From a virus (Duplodnaviria > Heunggongvirae > Uroviricota > Caudoviricetes), in the IMG/VR virus record IMGVR_UViG_2698536570_000003, positions 1-35,706 of that record: a stretch of 35,706 nt of DNA. One strand, 5' to 3'. Below, in pieces: positions 778 to 24,856 of this stretch. Within the stretch, counting starts at the first letter, position 1. Every line of letters starts with the position of its first letter. The translations under genes were made by a program, and so were the position numbers. The notes under the pieces were generated by a model. That model saw only the letters and a program-made list of their open reading frames with translations. It was not told the DNA's origin and made no database searches.

Positions 778-1017
778 ATGGGTAGCATTAACCTGCGTAT
801 TGACGATGAACTTAAAGCGCGTTCTTACGCCGCGCTTGAAAAAATGGGTGTAACTCCTTCTGAAGCGCTTCGTCTCATGCTCGAGTATATCGCTGACAAT
901 GAACGCTTGCCGTTCAAACAGACACTCCTGAGTGATGAAGATGCTGAACTTGTGGAGATAGTGAAAGAACGGCTTCGTAATCCTAAGCCAGTACGTGTGA
1001 CGCTGGATGAACTCTGA
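778..1017 (+). CDS. relB: RelB antitoxin (79 aa)
   Basis: Translation MGSINLRIDDELKARSYA... matches recalled E. coli RelB over full length; stop overlaps relE start. Confidence 0.93.
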   Translation: MGSINLRIDDELKARSYAALEKMGVTPSEALRLMLEYIADNERLPFKQTLLSDEDAELVEIVKERLRNPKPVRVTLDEL

Positions 1018-1304
1018 TGGCGTATTTTCTGGATTTTGACGAGCGGGCACTAAAGGAATGGCGAAAGCTGGGCTCGACGGTACGTGAACAGTTGAAAAAG
1101 AAGCTGGTTGAAGTACTTGAGTCACCCCGGATTGAAGCAAACAAGCTCCGTGGTATGCCTGATTGTTACAAGATTAAGCTCCGGTCTTCAGGCTATCGCC
1201 TTGTATACCAGGTTATAGACGAGAAAGTTGTCGTTTTCGTGATTTCTGTTGGGAAAAGAGAACGCTCGGAAGTATATAGCGAGGCGGTCAAACGCATTCT
1301 CTGA
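1017..1304 (+). CDS. relE: RelE mRNA interferase toxin (95 aa)
   Basis: Translation MAYFLDFDERALKEWRKLGSTVREQLKKKL... matches recalled RelE; coupled to relB. Confidence 0.93.
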   Translation: MAYFLDFDERALKEWRKLGSTVREQLKKKLVEVLESPRIEANKLRGMPDCYKIKLRSSGYRLVYQVIDEKVVVFVISVGKRERSEVYSEAVKRIL

Positions 1305-1375
1305 ACCAAAGCATGACATCTCTGTTTCGCACCGAAGGTGACACTTCTGCTTTGCGTTGACAGGAGAAGCAGGCT

Positions 1376-1531
1376 ATGAAGCAGCAAAAGGCGATGTTAA
1401 TCGCCCTGATCGTCATCTGTTTAACCGTCATAGTGACGGCACTGGTAACGAGGAAAGACCTCTGCGAGGTACGAATCCGAACCGGCCAGACGGAGGTCGC
1501 TGTCTTCACAGCTTACGAACCTGAGGAGTAA
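1376..1531 (+). CDS. hokD: Hok-family type I membrane toxin (HokD/RelF, 51 aa)
   Basis: ORF below the 60-aa track cutoff found by hand: MKQQKAMLIALIVICLTVIVTALVTRKDLCEVRIRTGQTEVAVFTAYEPEE; Hok family signature; position after relE as in K-12. Confidence 0.8.
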   Translation: MKQQKAMLIALIVICLTVIVTALVTRKDLCEVRIRTGQTEVAVFTAYEPEE

Positions 1532-16227: not shown

Positions 16228-17160
16228 ATGTCGATGTACACAACCGCCCAGCTGCTGGCGGCAAATGAGCAGAAATTTAAGTTTGATCCGCTGTTTCTGC
16301 GTCTCTTTTTCCGTGAGAGCTATCCCTTCACTACGGAGAAAGTCTATCTCTCACAAATTCCGGGACTGGTAAACATGGCGCTGTACGTTTCGCCGATTGT
16401 TTCCGGTGAGGTTATCCGTTCCCGTGGCGGCTCCACCTCTGAATTTACGCCGGGATATGTCAAACCCAAGCATGAGGTGAATCCGCAGATGACCCTGCGT
16501 CGCCTGCCGGATGAAGATCCACAGAATCTGGCGGACCCGGCTTACCGCCGCCGTCGCATCATCATGCAGAACATGCGAGACGAAGAGCTGGCCATTGCTC
16601 AGGTCGAAGAGATGCAGGCAGTTTCTGCCGTGCTCAAGGGCAAATACACCATGACCGGTGAAGCCTTCGATCCGGTTGAGGTGGATATGGGCCGCAGTGA
16701 AGCGAATAACATCACACAGTCTGGCGTCACGGAGTGGAGCAAGCGTGACAAGTCCACGTATGACCCGACCGACGATATCGAAGCCTACGCGCTGAACGCC
16801 AGCGGCGTGGTGAATATCATCGTGTTTGACCCGAAAGGCTGGGCGCTGTTCCGTTCCTTCAAAGCCGTCAGGGAGAAGCTGGATACCCGTCGCGGCTCTC
16901 ATTCCGAACTGGAGACAGCGGTAAAAGACCTGGGCAAAGCGGTGTCTTATAAGGGAATGTATGGCGATGTGGCCATCGTCGTGTATTCCGGACAGTACGT
17001 GGAAAACGGCGTCAAAAAGAACTTCCTGCCGGACAACACGATGGTGCTGGGTAACACTCATGCACGCGGTCTGCGCACCTATGGCTGTATTCAGGATGCG
17101 GATGCATTGAGTGAGGGTATTAATGCGTCTCCCCGTTATCCGAAAAACTGGAAGACATGA
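16228..17160 (+). pseudogene. E: major capsid protein gpE, N-terminal 312 codons, interrupted; stop codon TGA supplied by the first bases of the insertion
   Basis: MSMYTTAQLLAANEQKFKFDPLF... matches lambda E up to ...PRYPKNWKT, then stop; the missing 29-codon C-terminus is at 24857-24952. Confidence 0.88.
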
Positions 17161-17202
17161 TCCACCGCGCGATAAATAAGCCGCAATCCGTGAGATAAAT
17201 GG
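17158..17202. repeat. left terminal region of insertion (TGATCC..., GATAAATA at 17171, CCGTGAGATAAATGG at 17188)
   Basis: Motifs mirror the right end in reverse complement. Confidence 0.6.
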
Positions 17203-17218
17203 ACACGGTGCGGCTTTT
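17180..17218 (+). terminator. hairpin plus T-run just inside left end of insertion
   Basis: GCCGCAATCCGTG...CACGGTGCGGC followed by TTTT; would stop read-through from E. Confidence 0.4.
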
Positions 17219-17245
17219 CAGATACTGCAAAGGAATTACAAATTA

Positions 17246-19723
17246 TCAGTCGTAAGCAACCCGGCGCTTACGGGCAAGAATAGCTTCCAGCGCTCTTTCA
17301 ATCTCAGGAATGGACAGCTTAAGCGCATTCGCTACATCCGGTGCTGGTGACTTGTTCTTGCCATCAATATAGATATGGTTAATGACGTTAATCCCTGCAC
17401 CTGCCGGTGAATGTGAATCCCGGCCTCTGGATAAGGTAAGGTCGCCGCGCATATAGCGCTCTAATACGGGTGGTACTTTCGGTACATCCGGCACCATCAT
17501 ATCAGCCAGCCGCGAGGAGGCTTTTAGCGCCAGCGATGCAGACTGACCGATACCAATCGCCGCCCCTTCTGCGATGTTTGAACCGAAGCCCATAAAGACC
17601 CGGCTTGGCGAGTGAATCCCCAGCTTTTCCTTGAACCACCCGCCGACGCTATCGCCCATCTCGGTAACGGTATTCTTGAGCGACTCCCACTTATTTTTGA
17701 TACCGTTCACCAGTCCGTCAATCAGGTGACCGCCAAACTCGGTAAACTGGCCGGGAAGGTCGATGTTAAACCACTTCATGACCCCCGCAAACGCCTTGTA
17801 GAACAGCCCCAGCGGCGACCAGTTCAGGATTAGCTTACTGACGCCGAGAACGCCGCCGTTAAAGGCCGTTTTGACTTCCTCCCATCGCTGTGAGAACCAT
17901 CGACTTATTGCCCCCCAGTTGCGGTATATCAGGTATGCGCCCCCGGCGATGACGGTTATCGCAATGCCTAAGGGATTCATCATCAGCGCCCGGCCAAACC
18001 AGAGAAATGCTTTTGCAACGACCATGACGCCCCTGAACAGCCCACCTGCCAGCGCTTTACCCAGCGTCCCGGCTCCCTTCGCTACGGTACTGAATCCAGT
18101 AGCCAGCCAGCGCAACCTGCCACCAACACCAAGTGCGGCTTTCAGCTTCACCCAATGAGTGTGTACCAGAACAGCGTTTTTCCACATCCCAACAAAAGGT
18201 GAAAAAAGCAGATTAAGGCCGAGCTTCAGACCGACAGTGGCAATTTTCAGCCCCAGCAGTGCGCCCACGGTTTTTGCCACACCCTGAACAAGCGTCGGAT
18301 GTTGCTCTATCCAGAGCTTCGTTGTCTGAATCATCGGGATTAATTGCCGGGTTGCTGACACAAATGTAGGGGACAACTGATCGCCGAGAGAGATAGATAA
18401 ATCACGGGTGTTTATCATCAGGGCTTTGGTTGCTTCCAGCGGCGATTTGAGCCTTTCAGCATAGGATGCCGCCAGCAGGTCATTATCAGCCGCTTTAAGT
18501 GCACCAGAGCGGATTGCCCTGTATTTATCCATGTTAGCAAGCATAGGGCGAACGAACGCCATTACCTGCATATCGGTGAACATCTCACCCAGCCCAAAGT
18601 TTTTAGCCAGACTTTGTAAGGCCTCGTCCCGCGCTTTGTTGTCCTGAATTTGCATTGCGGATTTAAAACCAGCCAGAGCTTTCGGACTCGTTGCATTAAG
18701 GTATCTTTGGGTTACATCCAGCATACCTTCAATGGGGGAAACTCCGGCTGCTTTATAATTCGCAAGAGACCCCATCAGGTCGATACCTAAATCGGCAAAT
18801 CGCTTCTGCGTATCAGGCGCAAAAATCTTGGTGAGGAAGTTCCTGAAATTGTTTGCAGTCTCATCCGGTGAACCTGAACCAATCATAGCGACCTGCAAAC
18901 TGGCCCCAATCTCCGCCACTGCATCCTTACCGTCTGCAATACCCTGCATCATCGGCGCAAGCGACTGAATCCATTTCACCTGGTCAGGGATTTCAAAAGA
19001 CCCCTGGTCACCTGCGTAGGCCATGATGTTCTGTACCGCGCCAAATTCTTTTGCGCTGCCTTTCAGCGAGTTTTGCCACACCGCCGCAACCTTTGCCCAT
19101 TCCGTTCCTGCGGTACGGGTTGCCGTGGCTGCACGGGCGATATTCGGCATGTAGTTGCCAATATCTGAAAGCCCGTCAATGTTATCGCTGATAAGTGAAC
19201 CAACGGCGTCCTGCATATCGCTCTGATACTGGTTGTATTTGAGCGACCACCCTTTGATTTGCTCTCCCAGAGTCTTACGGGTTTTATCGTCATATTTCGC
19301 TGTGATTGACATATCAATCATTTTATCTTCAAACGATGCCGACTGTTCTATAGCCGGGGACACAAGACTGTAAGCAGCCCTGACTTGTGCATACGCCTCT
19401 ACTCCCTGACCGTAGAGCGCCATGCGGTTAGATTTCAGGGCGTCAGAAGTGGCAGACGCTGCCGACAGGCGGGACTGCTGGCGGTTAAGCTGTTCCAGCG
19501 TTCTGCCGACCCGTTGCAGGTCATTGTTCAGGCGCGAGGCTACGCCCGAACCAACCTGACCGTAACGCTGCATGGCGCGTGACAGGCTGCTTTGCTGCTC
19601 CGTCAGTCGGCGTGAGGTGTCGCCGAGAGAATCCAGAGTACGCCGGGTACTGCTCATCGCGGAACGAAAACTGCTCCCGACAATGCCGCCAATCATCACG
19701 CCAACAGAAAAATTATTGCTCAT
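17246..19723 (-). CDS. tape-measure-like protein (825 aa)
   Basis: Long helical N-terminal part, Gly/Trp/Phe-rich hydrophobic middle, C-terminal GIHSPSRVF-type motif; no search run. Confidence 0.55.
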   Translation of the reverse strand: MSNNFSVGVMIGGIVGSSFRSAMSSTRRTLDSLGDTSRRLTEQQSSLSRAMQRYGQVGSGVASRLNNDLQRVGRTLEQLNRQQSRLSAASATSDALKSNRMALYGQGVEAYAQVRAAYSLVSPAIEQSASFEDKMIDMSITAKYDDKTRKTLGEQIKGWSLKYNQYQSDMQDAVGSLISDNIDGLSDIGNYMPNIARAATATRTAGTEWAKVAAVWQNSLKGSAKEFGAVQNIMAYAGDQGSFEIPDQVKWIQSLAPMMQGIADGKDAVAEIGASLQVAMIGSGSPDETANNFRNFLTKIFAPDTQKRFADLGIDLMGSLANYKAAGVSPIEGMLDVTQRYLNATSPKALAGFKSAMQIQDNKARDEALQSLAKNFGLGEMFTDMQVMAFVRPMLANMDKYRAIRSGALKAADNDLLAASYAERLKSPLEATKALMINTRDLSISLGDQLSPTFVSATRQLIPMIQTTKLWIEQHPTLVQGVAKTVGALLGLKIATVGLKLGLNLLFSPFVGMWKNAVLVHTHWVKLKAALGVGGRLRWLATGFSTVAKGAGTLGKALAGGLFRGVMVVAKAFLWFGRALMMNPLGIAITVIAGGAYLIYRNWGAISRWFSQRWEEVKTAFNGGVLGVSKLILNWSPLGLFYKAFAGVMKWFNIDLPGQFTEFGGHLIDGLVNGIKNKWESLKNTVTEMGDSVGGWFKEKLGIHSPSRVFMGFGSNIAEGAAIGIGQSASLALKASSRLADMMVPDVPKVPPVLERYMRGDLTLSRGRDSHSPAGAGINVINHIYIDGKNKSPAPDVANALKLSIPEIERALEAILARKRRVAYD

Positions 19724-19755
19724 GGTTCACTCCGGTAATGAGTGGTTCGGTGGCG

Positions 19756-20349
19756 TCATTCGGTCAGGGACAGGCCGCTGATTCCGGTAATCCCGGCAAT
19801 TTCCTCGCTGACAGCCATCAGTTCACTTTCAAGCCCGGTACGTTCGCTGACCAGCGCCGCAACGGTCTTACGGCGTTCTGCCAGTGACGGAAGTTTGTCA
19901 TTGCCCCACACCACGCTTTTATCCTTCTTAAGCGCTTCGGTCAGGCGGGTGGCGACCACATCCGGGAAGAAAAAGCAGAGCTTGCGCATAACCGCCATCC
20001 CGGTATCAGCCGGGGAGATGTTTCCACCCAACCCCACCAGACGGAACAGGCCGGAAATATCGCCGCTCTCATTCTCCAGATTGCCCCAGCGTTCGGCGTT
20101 CCCTTCACTGCCGGAACTGTTGCAGAGGACACGCTTGAATGACTGATATTCTTCCTGCCCGAATCGCTCAATATATTCAGGAATGAAAGAACAGTAATCA
20201 TTAAGCGATAAAGGCATATCCTGTAATGTGGTTATTTCGCCGTTAATTTCACTAATGCGGCGAGAGAGTTTTTCTTTCTGCTCATTCAGGGAGGCAAGAT
20301 TATTTTTAACGGCGTTCAGTGCTTCGATAAGGGAAATAACTGGTTTCAT
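19756..20349 (-). CDS. hypothetical protein with N-terminal coiled coil (197 aa); chaperone or scaffold candidate
   Basis: ORF in track, directly upstream of the tape-measure-like gene. Confidence 0.4.
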   Translation of the reverse strand: MKPVISLIEALNAVKNNLASLNEQKEKLSRRISEINGEITTLQDMPLSLNDYCSFIPEYIERFGQEEYQSFKRVLCNSSGSEGNAERWGNLENESGDISGLFRLVGLGGNISPADTGMAVMRKLCFFFPDVVATRLTEALKKDKSVVWGNDKLPSLAERRKTVAALVSERTGLESELMAVSEEIAGITGISGLSLTE

Positions 20350-20350
20350 T

Positions 20351-20965
20351 TTAATAACTCCAGATAAAAGGCGTGGTGAGTGTGAGTGCTTCGGAATAGG
20401 AGACGTTACAGGCTTCGCTTACATCCTTTATTAAAAGGTGCTGCGCTGCTCTCTGGCTGTCAGCTATGCCGTCGAACTCTGAGAAATAAACGTGTGATTC
20501 ATTGTGACCAAAACAGACCGGGTAAGCGCTTTCCATAAATTCCACCTGCTCCAGCCCTTTAACGGCTGGCGGCTGTGAGCCGAGAAAACCGATATGGCGT
20601 AGATACCAAGCTCCGGTGCCTGCCGGGTTGCTGGCCTCGCCGGGCTTATAGAATGACGCAGATACTTTCCTGTAACGCCCTGAGCGCACCAGCCCCAGCA
20701 GGGTATCATCCGGTTTTACCAGTGCGAAAAGCCTGCCGTTCTTGCTTATCAGTCCGGTGGTTTCGCCATAGGCCGGGCTGTTACTGGCCGGATGCCCCAG
20801 ACACAGCGGCGCACCGTAACCCGCGCTGCGATAGCCGTTATAGGCCGCTGCCATGTTGTCGATATCCTCGTCGGAAAAGCTGATTTCCTGTCCCGCCATC
20901 GCGGTATGCGTTCCCGCCCGGAATATCTCAATCGTTTTCCAGTTGCCCAAATTAAGATTTGTCAT
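20351..20965 (-). CDS. hypothetical protein (204 aa), tentatively Mu gpI-like protease-domain
   Basis: Motifs RSGRYRKVSASFY and LRHIGFLGSQPPAVKGL resemble my recollection of Mu-I family proteins; recall is uncertain. Confidence 0.35.
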   Translation of the reverse strand: MTNLNLGNWKTIEIFRAGTHTAMAGQEISFSDEDIDNMAAAYNGYRSAGYGAPLCLGHPASNSPAYGETTGLISKNGRLFALVKPDDTLLGLVRSGRYRKVSASFYKPGEASNPAGTGAWYLRHIGFLGSQPPAVKGLEQVEFMESAYPVCFGHNESHVYFSEFDGIADSQRAAQHLLIKDVSEACNVSYSEALTLTTPFIWSY

Positions 20966-21007
20966 TTACCTGTTCTCGGTTGTGATGTGTAAACAGTGCT
21001 TTGCTGC

Positions 21008-21382
21008 TTAGTGTCTGGCAGCGCTATCTTTCAGGCTGTTTCTGTATTCACGGCGTTTTTGGGCGATAATGTTGTAAATCCATTGCAGGGAATAGCCGTA
21101 TTTTTTCGCTATTTCAGCGATGGGAATACCTTCATTAAAGTCTGCAAAAACCAGATCATATTTCTCTTCATTCTGGTCTTTTGTTCCTTTTGGGAAGTAA
21201 AGGTTAAGCCCGCCGTATACATCTGACAGATACGCCATGATGTCTACAGCGATAGATTCAGACTGACGTTTATCGACACCGTACATGACAAGGCGGCAGG
21301 AAATGTGCGTAGCCATATCACTAAGCACTTCGGCAGATTGACGCATTTTTTGTTTGTTGGTCATGACTATCACCCGTTGCAA
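21008..21382 (-). CDS. Mor-family transcriptional activator-like protein (124 aa)
   Basis: C-terminal half (YGGLNLYFPKG...FADFNEGIPIAEIAKKYGYSLQWIYNIIAQKRR) aligns by eye with Mu Mor HTH region. Confidence 0.55.
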   Translation of the reverse strand: MQRVIVMTNKQKMRQSAEVLSDMATHISCRLVMYGVDKRQSESIAVDIMAYLSDVYGGLNLYFPKGTKDQNEEKYDLVFADFNEGIPIAEIAKKYGYSLQWIYNIIAQKRREYRNSLKDSAARH

Positions 21383-21603
21383 TATCAGTAATTCAGTCAG
21401 AAAAGGCTTTATAAAGCTTTACAGCGTGCGACTGGCGGTAAAGGCGAACCTTGACCGCAGCAAACCAGCCTGACGGCTTAGAAAGCGTTACAGCACCTTG
21501 TTAAAGTCAGTTAATAATATCGGGTGTGGGCGGGGATGTTTTTTAATGTACTTTAGATATGAAGAAGCCCCTCAGAGGAGGGGCTTCGCGGGATTACGCC
21601 AGA

Positions 21604-21894
21604 TTATTGAGGCCGTCTGTCTTTCCTCAATCCATCAAGTAGCGCCATTGCATCAGTAACCAGTATGCCAGCAGCATCCGTAACCATAGAAACATCAGAG
21701 GATGCACATGATTTATCCGTACCTAATGTAGACGCAAAATCAAGTAGCTTACGAACTGCATCAAGTCGGTAGGTGGCAGAGTCGTAAATTAACTCCTGAT
21801 TAGCATCAGTCTTTAAAAACATAATATCATCAGAGGCACCTTGTGAAAATGACGGCATCGCACGGAAAGTATTTTGAGTTTCAGCCTGTTTCAT
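21604..21894 (-). CDS. hypothetical protein (96 aa)
   Basis: ORF in operon context, overlaps neighbour by 4 nt. Confidence 0.35.
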   Translation of the reverse strand: MKQAETQNTFRAMPSFSQGASDDIMFLKTDANQELIYDSATYRLDAVRKLLDFASTLGTDKSCASSDVSMVTDAAGILVTDAMALLDGLRKDRRPQ

Positions 21895-22652
21895 TGTGCA
21901 GCCCTCCGGCTAATAGCGAATTTATTATAAACTTCATAACTGGCAGCATTCAGTCCGGGGTTGTATTTATCAGCCAGAGCACAGGCAATCATATGTTCAA
22001 TAAATTTTGTTATTGCGTTAAGTTCGGTTTCGTCTGAATAACGCAATGCCACTTTGAGTAACTCGCGGCAATATTGCTTTTTATTCTCTTCGATTTGGCC
22101 TGATTGTTTTATTCCTGCCTTTTTATCTAACTCGTCCTCAACAGGCAAAGATGAGATATCCTCTTTATTGGTTAGCGTTCTTTCGCAAATAATATCTTCA
22201 CCAGATTGAATTACGCGCTGCAACTCTCTGGCGCTCATGCGAAGAATATCATCAAGCGTGTGGTCGTTATATGCCCCACCACTGGCAAGGAGATCCAGTG
22301 TCACTTCATCCAGCCGGGCAAGCAGATTTAACTTCGTTTTGCCGATATCTGTTTTGGCAATTGCGGCTCGTGGTGTGTCACCGCCGAACACATGAGCGAT
22401 TCGCATCGCTTTACGTGCATCGGGCAAGTTTATGCGCCATCTGTGAAGAAAGTTCGTAAACTCACCATGTTGCAGTTCCTCTTTACAGGCAAATATTTTC
22501 TTTCCCAAAGAAACCAAGCCTTCGGCCTCCGATGTCGTTTTAGCGTGAGAACTGTGAATCACGCCACTGACCACCGCAGATAAAACACTTTCTTGGTTTG
22601 TTCCAAATGAATCGTTAGACTTATCATTAGCCATGACTGTTATCCTACGCAT
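21891..22652 (-). CDS. hypothetical protein (253 aa, start uncertain), first gene of leftward operon
   Basis: ORF in track; translationally coupled to the 96-aa ORF. Confidence 0.4.
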   Translation of the reverse strand: MRRITVMANDKSNDSFGTNQESVLSAVVSGVIHSSHAKTTSEAEGLVSLGKKIFACKEELQHGEFTNFLHRWRINLPDARKAMRIAHVFGGDTPRAAIAKTDIGKTKLNLLARLDEVTLDLLASGGAYNDHTLDDILRMSARELQRVIQSGEDIICERTLTNKEDISSLPVEDELDKKAGIKQSGQIEENKKQYCRELLKVALRYSDETELNAITKFIEHMIACALADKYNPGLNAASYEVYNKFAISRRAAQ

Positions 22653-22772
22653 AACGGTTTACTGGTTAGGCCATAGCAAGTGCTCGCAACATTTGTTATG
22701 GCCGTTTCTCTAGACCTTTCCCTGTGTTAAGGTATAGACCTAATAAGCAAACACTAAGCTATAGGTCTATAC

Positions 22773-22964
22773 ATGTCAACTATCTTGCGAGATAAAAGCC
22801 CTAAAGGGGCAGGTAAAGCCCCGATGTTCAATGTCAGGATTTCACCAGAACTGAAAGAACAGTTTGAATCACAAGCAAAAAAAGAAGGTGTTAGCTTAGG
22901 GAATTGGCTCAAAGAGCTTGGGAGAGCAGAGCTTAAGCGCAACGGAATTGACCCGAAGGCTTAA
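22773..22964 (+). CDS. Arc/Mnt-like ribbon-helix-helix DNA-binding protein (63 aa)
   Basis: PMFNVRISPELKEQFESQAKKEGVSLGNWLKE fits the RHH pattern of P22 Arc; divergent from the leftward operon. Confidence 0.5.
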   Translation: MSTILRDKSPKGAGKAPMFNVRISPELKEQFESQAKKEGVSLGNWLKELGRAELKRNGIDPKA

Positions 22965-23000
22965 ATTTAGTTACTAAAAAACAATAGCTTAAGGTATTTT

Positions 23001-23086
23001 TGATAAATATTTATCACTTGTATTCGACATCATAGTGATAAATATTTATCATTCACAGCGCATCGGCACATGATAAAATGTTATCA
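23001..23086. promoter_or_regulatory. three 16-bp palindromic operator-like sites, 35 bp centre to centre
   Basis: TGATAAATATTTATCA at 23001-23016 and 23036-23051 (identical, perfect palindromes); TGATAAAATGTTATCA at 23071-23086. Confidence 0.6.
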
Positions 23087-23101
23087 CTTTGAGGCTAGTT
23101 T

Positions 23102-23446
23102 ATGCGTATACATGTTACTCTTAATGGCAAAAAAACAACCATATCGATAGATGACTTGCTCTTCGACTATCTTGGTGCATGGTTGGTTGAACAAAGACCC
23201 AAACTGCACTCAAAACCTAAAGAGCAGTATGACCAAGCTAAGTCTCAGATTCGTAAATATGTGCAAGATAACGCAGAAAAACTCCCATCTAAGAACCTTA
23301 GCCAGCACATACAAAATGCCATTTTAGAAATAATTATGCCGAAAGAATTAAATGAAATTCTAGAGAAAAGAGGGCCAAGATATGAGAAGAAAAAGTTTGA
23401 TGTGACCACAATTTTCCCTGATTGGGAAAATTATCTGAGAAAGTAA
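23102..23446 (+). CDS. hypothetical protein (114 aa), possible DNA-binding/regulatory
   Basis: ORF in track with GAGG RBS, directly after the operator array. Confidence 0.45.
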   Translation: MRIHVTLNGKKTTISIDDLLFDYLGAWLVEQRPKLHSKPKEQYDQAKSQIRKYVQDNAEKLPSKNLSQHIQNAILEIIMPKELNEILEKRGPRYEKKKFDVTTIFPDWENYLRK

Positions 23447-23465
23447 TTAAATCAATGGATTGTAT

Positions 23466-23607
23466 ACCGCTCAGCGCTGAGCGGTTCTGTGGCTCTAGAT
23501 CTGCCAACGTTGGCAGATTTGCCAATACCGCATTTGATTGATGGTATCGAATCGCAAATGTCCCAGCGCTGGGAATCATCCCCAAAGGCGCAGACATCTG
23601 CGCCTTT
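23466..23607. repeat. cluster of four distinct palindromes/hairpins
   Basis: ACCGCTCAGCGCTGAGCGGT (23466-23485), ATCTGCCAACGTTGGCAGAT (23499-23518), TCCCAGCGCTGGGA (23561-23574), AAAGGCGCAGA-CA-TCTGCGCCTTT (23584-23607). Confidence 0.6.
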
Positions 23608-23734
23608 GAGAAGCACGGAACTAAAATCCGTTTCACTGTATGACTGTATGGTATGAGGCTTTCAGATGCTTACTGAGGCTTAAATAAGCTAATGAAGTTT
23701 GCATCATCTGTTCCAAGTTAGTACACTTATCCCT

Positions 23735-23766
23735 GTTAGTGGATGCGTGACGCGCTCTGGTTGAGG
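23735..23766. repeat. left arm of 32-bp perfect inverted repeat
   Basis: GTTAGTGGATGCGTGACGCGCTCTGGTTGAGG; exact reverse complement at 23925-23956. Confidence 0.8.
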
Positions 23767-23820
23767 CTCATTACCTTGAACAGAGATTCATCACCTTAAG
23801 CACCCAAAGAAAAAAGCCTG

Positions 23821-23870
23821 NNNNNNNNNNNNNNNNNNNNNNNNNNNNNNNNNNNNNNNNNNNNNNNNNN
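23821..23870. other. run of 50 N (assembly gap or masked sequence of unknown true length)
   Basis: Seen directly. Confidence 0.99.
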
Positions 23871-23924
23871 GCATGTGAAACGTGTTCAAGCCCTGGCTGG
23901 ATTACGGGTGGTGCCGCTCCAGTG

Positions 23925-23956
23925 CCTCAACCAGAGCGCGTCACGCATCCACTAAC
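23925..23956. repeat. right arm of 32-bp perfect inverted repeat
   Basis: CCTCAACCAGAGCGCGTCACGCATCCACTAAC. Confidence 0.8.
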
Positions 23957-24028
23957 AATGCAACACCGTTAACCAGGCAGTGGAAGGGCTTTAATGGTGA
24001 TGCCGCGCTCCTGTAGTGGAGCAAACGG

Positions 24029-24112
24029 ATGAAGGGATTTCTTCAAATCGCTGTCATCGCTCTTAAGGCAATTGTCGCCTTTATTGAGCTGATTCTGGCC
24101 TGCTTACCGTAA
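24029..24112 (+). CDS. candidate 27-aa hydrophobic peptide (MKGFLQIAVIALKAIVAFIELILACLP), type I toxin-like
   Basis: ATG with GGAG 8 nt upstream; single predicted TM helix; followed 20 nt later by a strong terminator. Confidence 0.3.
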   Translation: MKGFLQIAVIALKAIVAFIELILACLP

Positions 24113-24133
24113 GCAACCGGGAAACGTAAGTAA

Positions 24134-24166
24134 GGCCACCGGCTCACCCCCGGTGGCCTTTAACAT
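24134..24166 (+). terminator. intrinsic terminator
   Basis: GGCCACCGG-CTCACCC-CCGGTGGCC followed by TTTAACATTTT. Confidence 0.55.
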
Positions 24167-24365
24167 TTTAAGTCTGCCTCGCCGCTCTACCGGCCATTCA
24201 TTTTTGAAGCTGGCTGAGTGTTAAGGCTAAATTTAAGGTGGCACTGACGGCTTAAATTCCTGCGATATCCTGGCATGTCGTTATGATTAAAGCGCATTAG
24301 AAACAAATTTCATCGTTCTGATTAAACATGTTTACCTGACTATTCAAAGTAAGGTAAATCTCAAT

Positions 24366-24710
24366 ATGGCACGACCTCAGACGGTTAATCAGTTACCCGA
24401 CTCTATCAAGAAGAAACTGAATAAAAAGCTGACGGAAAGTTCATTCAGCGGCTACGTTCAGCTTACTGAGTGGTTAAACTCGTTGGGATACCCGGTTTCA
24501 AAATCATCAGTGCATCGCTATGCTGAACGTCGCCGCCTGTCACTTATAGCAGGGAGCGATACTCCCGGCGCAACAGCTAACATTGTGGATACGAAACTTC
24601 GCTGTCTGGAGCTTGCCTCGCTCTCTTTAAAAACGGACGAGAAGTTGTCAGCAGATGAAGTAAAAAAATATGCTGAAAATTTGATGGGGTGGCTTTACGA
24701 CCAGAAATAA
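24366..24710 (+). CDS. HTH-containing small protein (114 aa) near right end of insertion; regulator or terminase-small-subunit-like
   Basis: Segment YVQLTEWLNSLGYPVSKSSVHRYAERRR looks like a helix-turn-helix; ORF in track. Confidence 0.45.
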   Translation: MARPQTVNQLPDSIKKKLNKKLTESSFSGYVQLTEWLNSLGYPVSKSSVHRYAERRRLSLIAGSDTPGATANIVDTKLRCLELASLSLKTDEKLSADEVKKYAENLMGWLYDQK

Positions 24711-24809
24711 TTGACTGCGCGGGAGGCGTGCCCTCCCGTTACGTATATGGAAACTGTTTTACAAATTCCCATCCAACCTTTTCCAACATCTTCCCCCATA
24801 GTCCCACAA

Positions 24810-24850
24810 TTATCTCACGGATAACCCTGTATTTATCTCATGTCTAATCA
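24810..24850. repeat. right terminal region of insertion (reverse complement carries CCGTGAGATAA at +30 and CATGAGATAAATA at +8)
   Basis: Mirrors the left end. Confidence 0.6.
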
Positions 24851-24856
24851 AAGACA

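What the first reader, a model, noticed from the sequence alone, without database searches (positions are those of the whole stretch)
24029..24166. Candidate 27-aa hydrophobic peptide with its own terminator (type I toxin-like)
ORF MKGFLQIAVIALKAIVAFIELILACLP has a GGAG Shine-Dalgarno about 8 nt upstream, is essentially one transmembrane helix, and is followed 20 nt later by a strong intrinsic terminator (GGCCACCGG-CTCACCC-CCGGTGGCC then a T-run). Size and composition resemble small membrane toxins of type I toxin-antitoxin systems (DinQ, ShoB or Hok-type peptides), which are typically paired with an antisense RNA and structured leader. The adjacent inverted repeat could provide that. It is too short to appear in the ORF track.
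Basis: inference. Interest (0 to 1): 0.55.

Follow-up and report, generated by a model that had tools for sequence, protein, structure and literature searches.

The report
Unannotated DinQ-like toxin with tandem antitoxin RNA
The 27-codon ORF is a real, conserved gene for a DinQ-like membrane peptide, and the nearby inverted repeat marks its small antitoxin RNA, so this is an overlooked variant of a known type I toxin-antitoxin family, carried on a small transposable phage-derived element.

Summary
The window is E. coli AW1.7. Its 50-N run (23821-23870) hides 111 real bases. These hold the antitoxin terminator, the toxin promoter and the mRNA 5' end.

With those bases restored, the locus aligns with E. 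coli K-12 dinQ along the whole ~330-nt mRNA. The 5'UTR is 190 nt (194 in dinQ). The SD-to-start spacing, conserved UTR blocks and 3' motif plus terminator all match.

The ORF is under purifying selection (pN/pS about 0.1 across five genera). Its peptide profile matches the DinQ/Dql family (hhalign 97.4%).

The 34-nt perfect inverted repeat is the sRNA-mRNA pairing site. Its left arm is the 5' end of a predicted ~110-nt sRNA with its own promoter and terminator.

Differences from dinQ/agrB:
- The sRNA is co-oriented upstream (tandem), not divergent.
- There is no LexA box.
- The family-invariant Arg is replaced by Leu.
- The peptide fails both NCBIfam models and the sRNA fails Rfam AgrB, which probably explains why the locus is unannotated.
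- The published 5'-truncation switch that frees the SD is not reproduced in silico.

Toxicity and transcription were not tested. Verdict: a new variant of a known kind, of moderate interest.

The parts
23699..23727 (+). Predicted sigma-70 promoter of the antitoxin sRNA: TTGCAT (23699-23704), 17-nt spacer, TACACT (23722-23727).
   Evidence: Read. The geometry matches the K-12 agrB promoter TTGCAA-17-TAGTAT-6-GTTAG. A -35/-10 pair sits at the same position in Pluralibacter, Cedecea, Symbiopectobacterium and Xenorhabdus relatives. It is too weak for the consensus scanner, which did not call it.
23735..23820 (+). Visible part of the predicted antitoxin sRNA, about 110 nt in all. It starts GTTAG at 23735. 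The last ~26 nt, including the 3' half of the terminator AAAAAAGCCTGACCTCACCAGTCGGGCTTTTTTT, lie under the N run (L001 6136-6247).
   Evidence: The RNA folds with z = -3.96. The terminator segment is about 87-95% identical to the sRNA region beside dqlB on conjugative plasmids. The same unit, 81-114 nt on the toxin strand, is present in 7 tandem-clade loci. Rfam AgrB gave no hit at E<=1.
23735..23767 (+). Left arm: the 33-nt 5' seed of the sRNA, complementary to the toxin 5'UTR (34 nt if T23734 is counted).
23821..23870 (.). Run of 50 N replacing 111 real bases. Hidden here: the sRNA terminator 3' half, the toxin promoter TTGAAT-16-TATAAT, and mRNA nt +1 to +32 (GTTAGTGGGTGTCCCGTTCTGACACAACGCAG).
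   Evidence: The AW1.7 record is 100% identical on both flanks. The promoter scan found a 10/12 match at L001 6267-6294.
23871..24170 (+). Visible part of the toxin mRNA (nt +33 to about +332).
   Evidence: It aligns with the K-12 dinQ mRNA and 26 other family mRNAs. It folds with z = -2.77.
23924..23956 (+). Right arm: the sRNA target in the 5'UTR (mRNA +86..+118). It is also the predicted partner of the mRNA's own 5' end (stem S1) and of the anti-SD strand.
   Evidence: The dinQ equivalent is G88-A119.
24003..24028 (+). SD-sequestering hairpin CCG-C-GCTCC-TGTAGT-GGAGC-AAA-CGG, with GGAG at 24018-24021.
   Evidence: -11.3 kcal/mol, against -6.2 for the dinQ hairpin. It is paired in the MFE and centroid structures. 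The outer stem covaries: CCG/CGG here, CACG/CGTG in Pluralibacter.
24029..24112 (+). Toxin ORF, 27 aa: MKGFLQIAVIALKAIVAFIELILACLP.
24120..24169 (+). Family-wide 3' motif GGAAACGTAAGTAAGG (24120-24135), overlapping the terminator hairpin (24134-24158), followed by TTTAACATTTT.
   Evidence: The motif is invariant in 28 aligned family mRNAs and the hairpin covaries.
17158..24850 (.). Carrier: a ~7.75-kb non-autonomous BcepMu-like transposable element (TGATCC...TAATCA). It has a 6-bp target duplication AAGACA (17152-17157 and 24851-24856) and is inserted in the Qin major capsid gene.

Best explanation
This is a dinQ/agrB-family type I toxin-antitoxin module.

Proposed mechanism:
- A near-consensus sigma-70 promoter, hidden under the N run, makes a ~330-nt mRNA.
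- In that mRNA the first ~20 nt (GUUAGUGGGUGU...) pair with nt ~99-118, and the SD is locked in a local hairpin. The primary transcript should therefore be translationally inert (predicted fold).
- An upstream ~110-nt sRNA on the same strand begins with 33 nt perfectly complementary to mRNA +86..+118.
- By analogy with AgrB, sRNA binding keeps the SD closed and creates a long duplex for RNase III (inferred).
- When the sRNA is lost or outcompeted, and the mRNA is processed, the 27-aa single-helix peptide is made. It inserts into the inner membrane and depolarises the cell (inferred from DinQ and DqlB).

The module is cargo on a small transposable phage-derived element. It most likely stabilises that element or the replicon carrying it (inferred).
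For: Homology to dinQ:
- The mRNA aligns with K-12 dinQ in length (about 332 vs 331 nt), 5'UTR (190 vs 194 nt), conserved blocks (AAGYCCTGG, TACGGGTGGTGCCG, CAGGCAGTG), GGAG-7nt-start, and the 3' motif plus terminator.
- The peptide clade profile against the rest of DinQ/Dql gives hhalign probability 97.4%.

Coding:
- pS is 0.49-0.54 against pN 0.05-0.12 versus the Pluralibacter and Cedecea copies. Variable columns by codon position are 7/2/19.

Antitoxin:
- The inverted repeat is 34 nt and perfect.
- In 26 of 27 family loci a cognate 33-nt segment pairs at 25-33 of 33 positions. The best of 30 shuffled-target controls was 19-23 (run). There are 3-6 pair types at most duplex positions.
- A compensatory change is present: CTCTGG/CCAGAG in AW1.7 against CTCAGG/CCTGAG in L014 and L015.
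- A promoter, a GTTAG start and the same terminator are conserved in 7 tandem-clade loci from 5 genera.
- Co-folding sRNA with mRNA gains about 43 kcal/mol.

Function in relatives:
- DinQ depolarises the membrane and AgrB counteracts it (PMC3567139; mechanism in PMC5066626).
- Plasmid DqlB/AgrB is toxic, is rescued by the sRNA, and acts as an addiction module (PMC12365149).
Against: - There are no expression or toxicity data for this clade.
- The K-12 dinQ control reproduces the published switch in silico. P(SD unpaired) rises from 0.07 to 0.24-0.62 after 5' truncation and falls to 0.01 when the target is blocked. In this mRNA the SD stays paired (0.00) for nearly every 5' end up to +166, peaking at 0.15 around +86. 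How translation is activated is therefore unresolved.
- The peptide misses both curated NCBIfam models.
- The family-invariant Arg of ELIR is Leu here.
- The sRNA gets no Rfam AgrB hit, while the K-12 control scores 106-108 bits.
- The sRNA promoter is weak by consensus.
- The toxin terminator has an interrupted T tract.
Confidence: 0.8

Rival explanations
1. The module is a conserved but silenced or decaying dinQ-like locus. The mRNA is made, but the peptide is effectively never translated because the SD hairpin is too stable, so it does not work as a toxin-antitoxin system.
For: The SD is predicted paired in the full-length mRNA and in nearly every 5'-truncated form. The SD hairpin is -11.3 kcal/mol against -6.2 in dinQ, and the 2:3 helix is weaker, -15.2 against -18.5.
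Against: Strong purifying selection on the ORF across genera requires translation. The sRNA-target complementarity is maintained by compensatory changes. Thermodynamic models ignore co-transcriptional folding, standby binding and unknown cleavage sites.
Confidence: 0.08
2. The ORF encodes a conserved small membrane peptide with a non-toxic role, for example modulating a membrane process for the phage-derived element. The inverted repeat then acts mainly in cis, as a long hairpin in read-through transcripts, rather than through a separate sRNA.
For: Both arms are on the same strand. A transcript reading through the sRNA terminator would fold them into a 33-bp hairpin. Toxicity is untested. The clade has lost the invariant Arg.
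Against: A dedicated promoter and a strong terminator flank the left arm and are conserved in distant members. The left arm starts exactly at the predicted +1, as in agrB. Every tested relative is toxic (PMC3567139, PMC12365149).
Confidence: 0.1
3. The ORF is a chance reading frame in a non-coding regulatory region of the element.
For: It is only 27 codons. It is not annotated in RefSeq, has no Pfam or NCBIfam hit, and is absent from the 15-billion-protein collection.
Against: Variable columns by codon position are 7/2/19 and pN/pS is about 0.1. The frame, SD and start are conserved in 17 copies found. Profile homology to DinQ/Dql is 97.4%.
Confidence: 0.02

Closest known systems
dinQ/agrB type I toxin-antitoxin of E. 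coli K-12 (Weel-Sneve 2013, PMC3567139; Kristiansen 2016, PMC5066626)
   Same: - A ~330-nt mRNA with a ~190-nt structured 5'UTR and shared sequence blocks.
- The 5' end pairs with the sRNA target region.
- An SD hairpin, GGAG-7nt-start, and a 27-aa single-helix peptide with the A-x-x-A-x-[LI]-E-L-I core.
- The same 3' motif and terminator.
- An sRNA whose first 33 nt (starting GTTAG) pair with the same UTR position.
   Different: - The sRNA is upstream on the same strand (tandem), not divergent, and there is only one copy (no agrA).
- There is no LexA operator: best 10 of 20 matches against 15 of 20 in dinQ.
- ELIR is ELIL.
- The seed sequence is unrelated. K-12 AgrB pairs at only 16 of 33 positions with this target.
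- It lies below the NCBIfam toxin_DinQ cut-off and has no Rfam AgrB hit.
- The SD-opening switch is not reproduced in silico.
- It is carried on a mobile element rather than at arsR-gor.
dqlB/agrB (DinQ-like B) of conjugative plasmids, validated on pOXA-48 (PMC12365149)
   Same: It is on a mobile element and has no LexA box. The complementarity is ~33-35 nt. The sRNA terminator segment is about 87-95% identical to ours. A role in maintenance (addiction) is plausible here too.
   Different: DqlB is 31 aa with an inserted RAVAALAN segment. Its sRNA is divergent, giving a direct repeat in the DNA. Our peptide gets no NF041473 hit.
Other DinQ-family loci with a co-oriented sRNA: the AF[LI]ELI clade in Symbiopectobacterium, Cedecea and Xenorhabdus (L017, L052, L036)
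   Same: Tandem sRNA, terminator, promoter, then mRNA. They share the GAGCGCG / CGCGCTCC elements and the same sRNA terminator.
   Different: They keep the invariant Arg (ELIR) and reach the NCBIfam DinQ cut-off (38.3 and 37.3 bits for the two scanned). I found no description of the tandem layout in the papers I searched. T1TAdb assumed one fixed family orientation (PMC8594479).
shoB/ohsC and zorO/orzO type I systems
   Same: Small hydrophobic toxin, long 5'UTR, and a separately encoded sRNA that pairs with the UTR. ShoB-like loci share the exact 3' motif GGAAACGTAANTAAGG-hairpin-CCTTTAA. The sRNA gets a weak OrzO-P Rfam hit, 24.5 bits against a cut-off of 60.
   Different: The peptide sequence differs and the UTR blocks do not align. 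The sRNA is divergent in those systems.

Membership tests
DinQ/AgrB (dinQ and dql genes; Kristiansen 2016) | 5'UTR sequence similarity to dinQ, with a sigma-70 promoter, a correctly placed SD and start, and a Rho-independent terminator | tested here: met
   Alignment A1 of 28 mRNAs and direct comparison with K-12. Promoter TTGAAT-16-TATAAT. GGAG-7nt-ATG. The terminator hairpin covaries.
DinQ/AgrB (dinQ and dql genes; Kristiansen 2016) | Small single-transmembrane peptide with the family signature residues | tested here: inconclusive
   hhalign probability 97.4% and a shared A-x-x-A-x-[LI]-E-L-I core. However, the Arg that is invariant in 15 other members is Leu in all 6 clade members.
DinQ/AgrB (dinQ and dql genes; Kristiansen 2016) | sRNA with about 30-35 nt of complementarity to the 5'UTR upstream of the RBS | tested here: met
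   33 of 33 Watson-Crick pairs at mRNA +86..+118, against G88-A119 in dinQ.
DinQ/AgrB (dinQ and dql genes; Kristiansen 2016) | sRNA gene transcribed divergently from the toxin gene | tested here: not met
   The repeat is inverted in the DNA, so the sRNA is on the toxin strand. Its promoter and terminator are on the + strand.
DinQ/AgrB (dinQ and dql genes; Kristiansen 2016) | Mutually exclusive 5'UTR structures: SD closed in the +1 form, opened by 5' processing, reclosed by the sRNA | tested here: inconclusive
   The S1 stem and the SD hairpin are predicted, and the 2:3 helix covaries (GAGCGCG:CGCGCTC against GAGCGTG:CACGCTC). SD opening is not reproduced here, whereas the dinQ control does reproduce it.
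dinQ proper (SOS gene) | LexA operator overlapping the promoter | tested here: not met
   There is no CTG-N10-CAG at the promoter. The best match to the 20-mer consensus is 10 of 20, against 15 of 20 in K-12.
NCBIfam NF041472 toxin_DinQ / NF041473 DinQ_rel (DqlB) | Score at or above the curated cut-off (30 and 35 bits) | tested here: not met
   The window peptide has no hit at E<=10. The Cedecea clade member scores 20.7 bits against NF041472. Control peptides from other clades score 37-69 bits against their best model.
Rfam RF02891 AgrB | Score at or above the gathering threshold (40 bits) | tested here: not met
   No AgrB match at E<=1 on the unmasked locus. K-12 agrA and agrB score 106 and 108 bits.
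Type I toxin-antitoxin systems (general) | The peptide is toxic when over-produced, and the RNA antitoxin blocks its synthesis | not testable with these tools
   Shown only for relatives: DinQ (PMC3567139) and DqlB (PMC12365149).
Hok/Sok | A ~50-aa Hok with an overlapping mok frame and a cis-overlapping Sok antisense RNA | tested here: not met
   The peptide is 27 aa and has no Pfam hit. The upstream 44-aa frame is broken by a stop in MS 115-1. The sRNA does not overlap the mRNA.

The most novel reading that the evidence does not exclude
The co-oriented layout may be a distinct design rather than a trivial inversion. Placing the antitoxin seed upstream on the toxin strand means any transcript that reads into the toxin gene from outside carries its own 33-nt anti-target and self-neutralises in cis. 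That would suit cargo on an element that lands inside transcribed genes.

On this reading the module, together with its ~7.75-kb transposase-less BcepMu-like carrier, belongs to an undescribed family of mini transposable-phage satellites with swappable cargo. A sibling element with different cargo sits in E. coli KCJ3K291.
Probability: 0.15. Interest if true: 0.6.

Novelty: new variant of a known kind. Interest (0 to 1): 0.4.

Why it matters
- It adds an unannotated toxin gene and sRNA to E. coli AW1.7, MS 115-1 and other genomes.
- It shows that curated models (NCBIfam DinQ and DqlB, Rfam AgrB), and pipelines that assume one fixed antitoxin orientation, miss a clade of the DinQ family.
- It gives a natural test case for how antitoxin orientation and SD-hairpin strength tune a type I system that lacks SOS control.
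- Because the module rides on a small element that transposes into chromosomes, prophages and a conjugative plasmid, it may contribute to the persistence of that element.
- It does not open a new class of system.

Tried and rejected
- Pfam and NCBIfam scans of the peptide gave no hits.
- The exact peptide is absent from the 15-billion-protein collection.
- The phage record collection has no match to the locus in near or distant mode.
- Rfam gave only sub-threshold hits: an STnc40 terminator-like hairpin, Thr_leader and OrzO-P. I read all three as terminator-driven, the last possibly a distant relationship.
- SOS control is rejected because there is no LexA box.
- A Hok/mok-like or tisA-like upstream ORF (44 aa, 23882-24016) is rejected because a stop breaks it in MS 115-1.
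- Thermodynamic reproduction of the dinQ +44 activation switch failed for this mRNA, although it worked for the K-12 control.
- The first version of the complementarity scan found only the trivial self-antisense and used a wrong anchor. It was redone.
- PADLOC and Pfam scans of the element's unknown proteins, and of the sibling element's cargo, gave nothing.
- A literature search for the peptide sequence returned nothing relevant.
- The supplements of Kristiansen 2016 are not held. I could not check whether one of their 14 Dql peptides, or dqlA, belongs to this clade.

Full report
**Observation.** The 27-codon ORF is at window 24029-24112 on the + strand and encodes MKGFLQIAVIALKAIVAFIELILACLP. 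GGAG lies at 24018-24021, 7 nt before the ATG. The hairpin GGCCACCGG-CTCACCC-CCGGTGGCC lies at 24134-24158, 21 nt after the stop codon. The tail is TTTAACATTTT, not a clean T run, and the consensus scan did not call it on the + strand. The adjacent inverted repeat is real: arms at 23734-23767 and 23924-23957, 34 nt, 100% complementary.

**Hidden sequence.** The window is 100% identical to E. coli AW1.7 (NZ_CP073624.1). Window 23821-23870 is 50 N that stand for 111 real bases, L001 6222-6332. Those bases contain three features:
- the 3' half of a terminator, AAAAAAGCCTGACCTCACCAGTCGGGCTTTTTTT;
- a near-consensus promoter, TTGAAT-16-TATAAT, pointing at the ORF;
- the first 32 nt of the resulting mRNA.

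No gene is annotated between the flanking CDSs in any of the RefSeq records examined.

**What it is.** Distant BLAST linked the terminator segment to conjugative plasmids, next to genes annotated 'DinQ-like type I toxin DqlB'. I then compared the locus directly with the K-12 dinQ-agrAB locus. The two are homologous along the whole mRNA:
- The predicted +1 is a G starting GTTAG, 6 nt after the -10 box.
- The 5'UTR is 190 nt (194 in dinQ).
- The blocks AAGYCCTGG, TACGGGTGGTGCCG and CAGGCAGTG are shared.
- GGAG-7nt-start is shared.
- Both peptides are 27 aa.
- The 3' motif GGAAACGTAA-N-TAAGG runs into a hairpin followed by CCTTTAAC.
- Total length is about 332 nt, against 331 nt for dinQ (PMC5066626).

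**Family survey.** An exact-pattern scan for the 3' motif found 48 loci among species-representative genomes and 14 in IMG/VR. Nearly all are in Enterobacterales, and most have a DinQ-like ORF at the expected place. The window's peptide type (…AFIELILACL[PS]) occurs in the following:
- E. coli, in 9 of 5,426 complete genomes;
- a Citrobacter IncFIC plasmid;
- Pluralibacter gergoviae, Cedecea davisae, Erwinia tracheiphila and Ca. Erwinia dacicola;
- a MAG and several viral contigs.

**Is the ORF a gene?** Yes. Against the Pluralibacter copy, pS is 0.49 and pN is 0.049. Against the Cedecea copy, pS is 0.54 and pN is 0.116. Variable columns by codon position are 7/2/19. A profile of the clade matches a profile of 15 other DinQ/Dql peptides with 97.4% probability. 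The shared core is A-x-x-A-x-[LI]-E-L-I. The Arg after ELI, invariant in all the others, is Leu in this clade.

The window peptide gets no hit from either NCBIfam model, toxin_DinQ (cut-off 30 bits) or DqlB (cut-off 35 bits). The Cedecea member reaches only 20.7 bits. Control peptides from other clades score 37-69 bits against their best model. This probably explains why PGAP does not annotate the gene. The exact peptide is also absent from the 15-billion-protein collection.

**The antitoxin.** The left arm of the inverted repeat begins exactly where an sRNA would start. The layout TTGCAT-17-TACACT-7-GTTAG (23699-23739) has the same geometry as the agrB promoter, TTGCAA-17-TAGTAT-6-GTTAG. The unit ends at the hidden terminator, giving an RNA of about 110 nt that folds with z = -3.96. 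Its first 33 nt are perfectly complementary to mRNA +86..+118, which corresponds to the AgrB site G88-A119 in dinQ.

Across 27 family loci, a cognate segment pairing at 25-33 of 33 positions exists in 26. The best of 30 shuffled-target controls was 19-23 (run). The seeds are otherwise unrelated between clades, with 3-6 pair types at most duplex positions. Within the clade there is a clean compensatory change: CTCTGG/CCAGAG in AW1.7 against CTCAGG/CCTGAG in L014 and L015. A single mismatch is seen as the intermediate state in MS 115-1, CX21 and the Citrobacter plasmid. The Pluralibacter and Cedecea pairs differ from AW1.7 at many positions. The Pluralibacter pair still matches at all 33 positions, with G-U as its only non-Watson-Crick pairs. 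The Cedecea pair keeps 30 of 33, with three internal mismatches.

**Orientation.** In dinQ, DqlB and the other clades, the complementarity is a direct repeat in the DNA, so the sRNA is divergent. In this clade, and in its AF[LI]ELI relatives (Symbiopectobacterium, a second Cedecea locus, Xenorhabdus), it is an inverted repeat. The sRNA therefore sits upstream on the toxin strand. All seven tandem loci inspected have their own -35/-10 and the same terminator on that strand. Rfam's AgrB model scores the K-12 sRNAs at 106-108 bits but finds nothing here at E<=1. T1TAdb's prediction pipeline kept only RNA pairs in each family's defined orientation (PMC8594479). I found no description of the tandem layout in the papers I searched.

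**Mechanism: what is shown and what is inferred.**
- Predicted from the sequence: the +1 mRNA pairs its first ~20 nt with nt 99-118. This is the S1 lock of dinQ, conserved here with a different sequence. The SD sits in the hairpin GCUCC-UGUAGU-GGAGC, extended by CCG/CGG.
- Predicted from the sequence: the target region contains CAGAGCGCG, which can pair with the anti-SD strand CGCGCUCCUG. This is the equivalent of the dinQ 2:3 helix. It covaries in Pluralibacter (GAGCGTG:CACGCTC).
- Predicted from the sequence: co-folding the sRNA with the mRNA forms the 33-bp duplex and gains about 43 kcal/mol.
- Inferred from dinQ (PMC5066626, PMC3567139) and DqlB (PMC12365149): 5' processing activates translation; the sRNA blocks this and triggers RNase III cleavage; the peptide depolarises the inner membrane.

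One step does not transfer cleanly. With the same script, K-12 dinQ reproduces the published switch. P(SD unpaired) rises from 0.07 to 0.24-0.62 on truncation and falls to 0.01 with the target blocked. In this mRNA the SD stays paired (0.00) for nearly every 5' end up to +166, peaking at 0.15 around +86. Its SD hairpin is stronger (-11.3 against -6.2 kcal/mol) and its 2:3 helix is weaker (-15.2 against -18.5). How translation is activated is therefore open.

There is no LexA box: the best match is 10 of 20, against 15 of 20 in dinQ. Control is probably purely post-transcriptional.

**Context.** The module is cargo near the right end of a ~7.75-kb element at window 17158-24850.
- Its termini are TGATCC…TAATCA, and repeated GTGAGATAAAT-like motifs lie near both ends.
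- It makes a 6-bp target duplication: AAGACA here, GCCGAA and ACTCAT in two other copies.
- It has landed in the Qin major capsid gene (AW1.7), between dacD and sbmC (CX strains, MS 115-1), in a PTS EIIC gene (LR536431), and in the leading region of an IncFIC plasmid.
- It encodes a tape measure protein whose relatives are BcepMu-like transposable phages. It also encodes Mor, DUF3102, an Arc/HicB-like protein and a Gp27 N-terminal domain. It has no transposase.
- A sibling element in E. coli KCJ3K291 has the same left core but different cargo.
- In one viral contig the same toxin clade sits beside myovirus tail genes and an O-antigen acetylase. The module therefore moves between prophage contexts.

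A maintenance (addiction) or exclusion role is plausible but untested.

**Verdict.** The locus is a member of the DinQ/AgrB superfamily by descent. It is a distinct, unannotated clade with these departures:
- a co-oriented antitoxin;
- no SOS control;
- a lost signature Arg;
- a more tightly closed SD.

I rate it a new variant of a known kind, of moderate interest.

Noticed in passing
window 23821-23870: The 50-N run replaces 111 real bases, read from the 100%-identical AW1.7 record. It hides the sRNA terminator, the toxin promoter and the mRNA 5' end. Window coordinates after it are shifted by 61 relative to the genome.
   Followed up: yes
window 17158-24850 (target duplication at 17152-17157 and 24851-24856): A ~7.75-kb transposase-less BcepMu-like element (TGATCC...TAATCA, 6-bp target duplication) is inserted in the Qin major capsid gene. 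Near-identical copies lie at three other sites, including a conjugative plasmid. It may be a natural mini-Mu-like element or a satellite mobilised by full-length BcepMu-like prophages.
   Followed up: partly
L072 33600-41422 (E. coli KCJ3K291, inside ybhJ): A sibling ~7.8-kb element has the same core (tape measure, two unknown proteins, Mor, unknown protein, DUF3102-like). In place of the toxin module and gp27 it carries a 318-aa protein with no Pfam or PADLOC hit. This suggests a variable cargo slot near the right end.
   Followed up: partly
L055 7770-7819; L058, L060, L063, L064: ShoB-like peptides (for example MEPRRLVKQVIRIVIAVLQLILLFL) are followed by the same 3' motif as the DinQ family, GGAAACGTAANTAAGG-hairpin-CCTTTAA. 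This points to common ancestry of the shoB and dinQ mRNA 3' ends.
   Followed up: no
window 23882-24016 (+): A 44-aa GTG-start ORF lies inside the toxin 5'UTR. It is interrupted by a stop codon in the MS 115-1 copy, so it is not conserved.
   Followed up: yes
window 23501-23516 and 23584-23607: Two palindromes lie upstream of the sRNA promoter: CTGCCAACGTTGGCAG, and AAAGGCGCAGACATCTGCGCCTTT. The second gives a sub-threshold Rfam match to the STnc40 terminator hairpin on both strands. They are probably bidirectional terminators of the preceding gene. Other copies of the element have a different hairpin here.
   Followed up: no
window 20351-20965 and 24366-24710: Two element proteins look like fragments of larger phage proteins. 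The 204-aa protein matches only the N-terminal part of a head maturation protease family (phrog_976, profile positions 31-173 of 415). The 114-aa Gp27-family protein matches only the first ~55 residues of the small-terminase-like Gp27.
   Followed up: partly
window 778-1531: The Qin prophage part of the window carries the annotated relBE type II system and the hokD type I toxin, so the window holds a second, already known, type I toxin gene.
   Followed up: no
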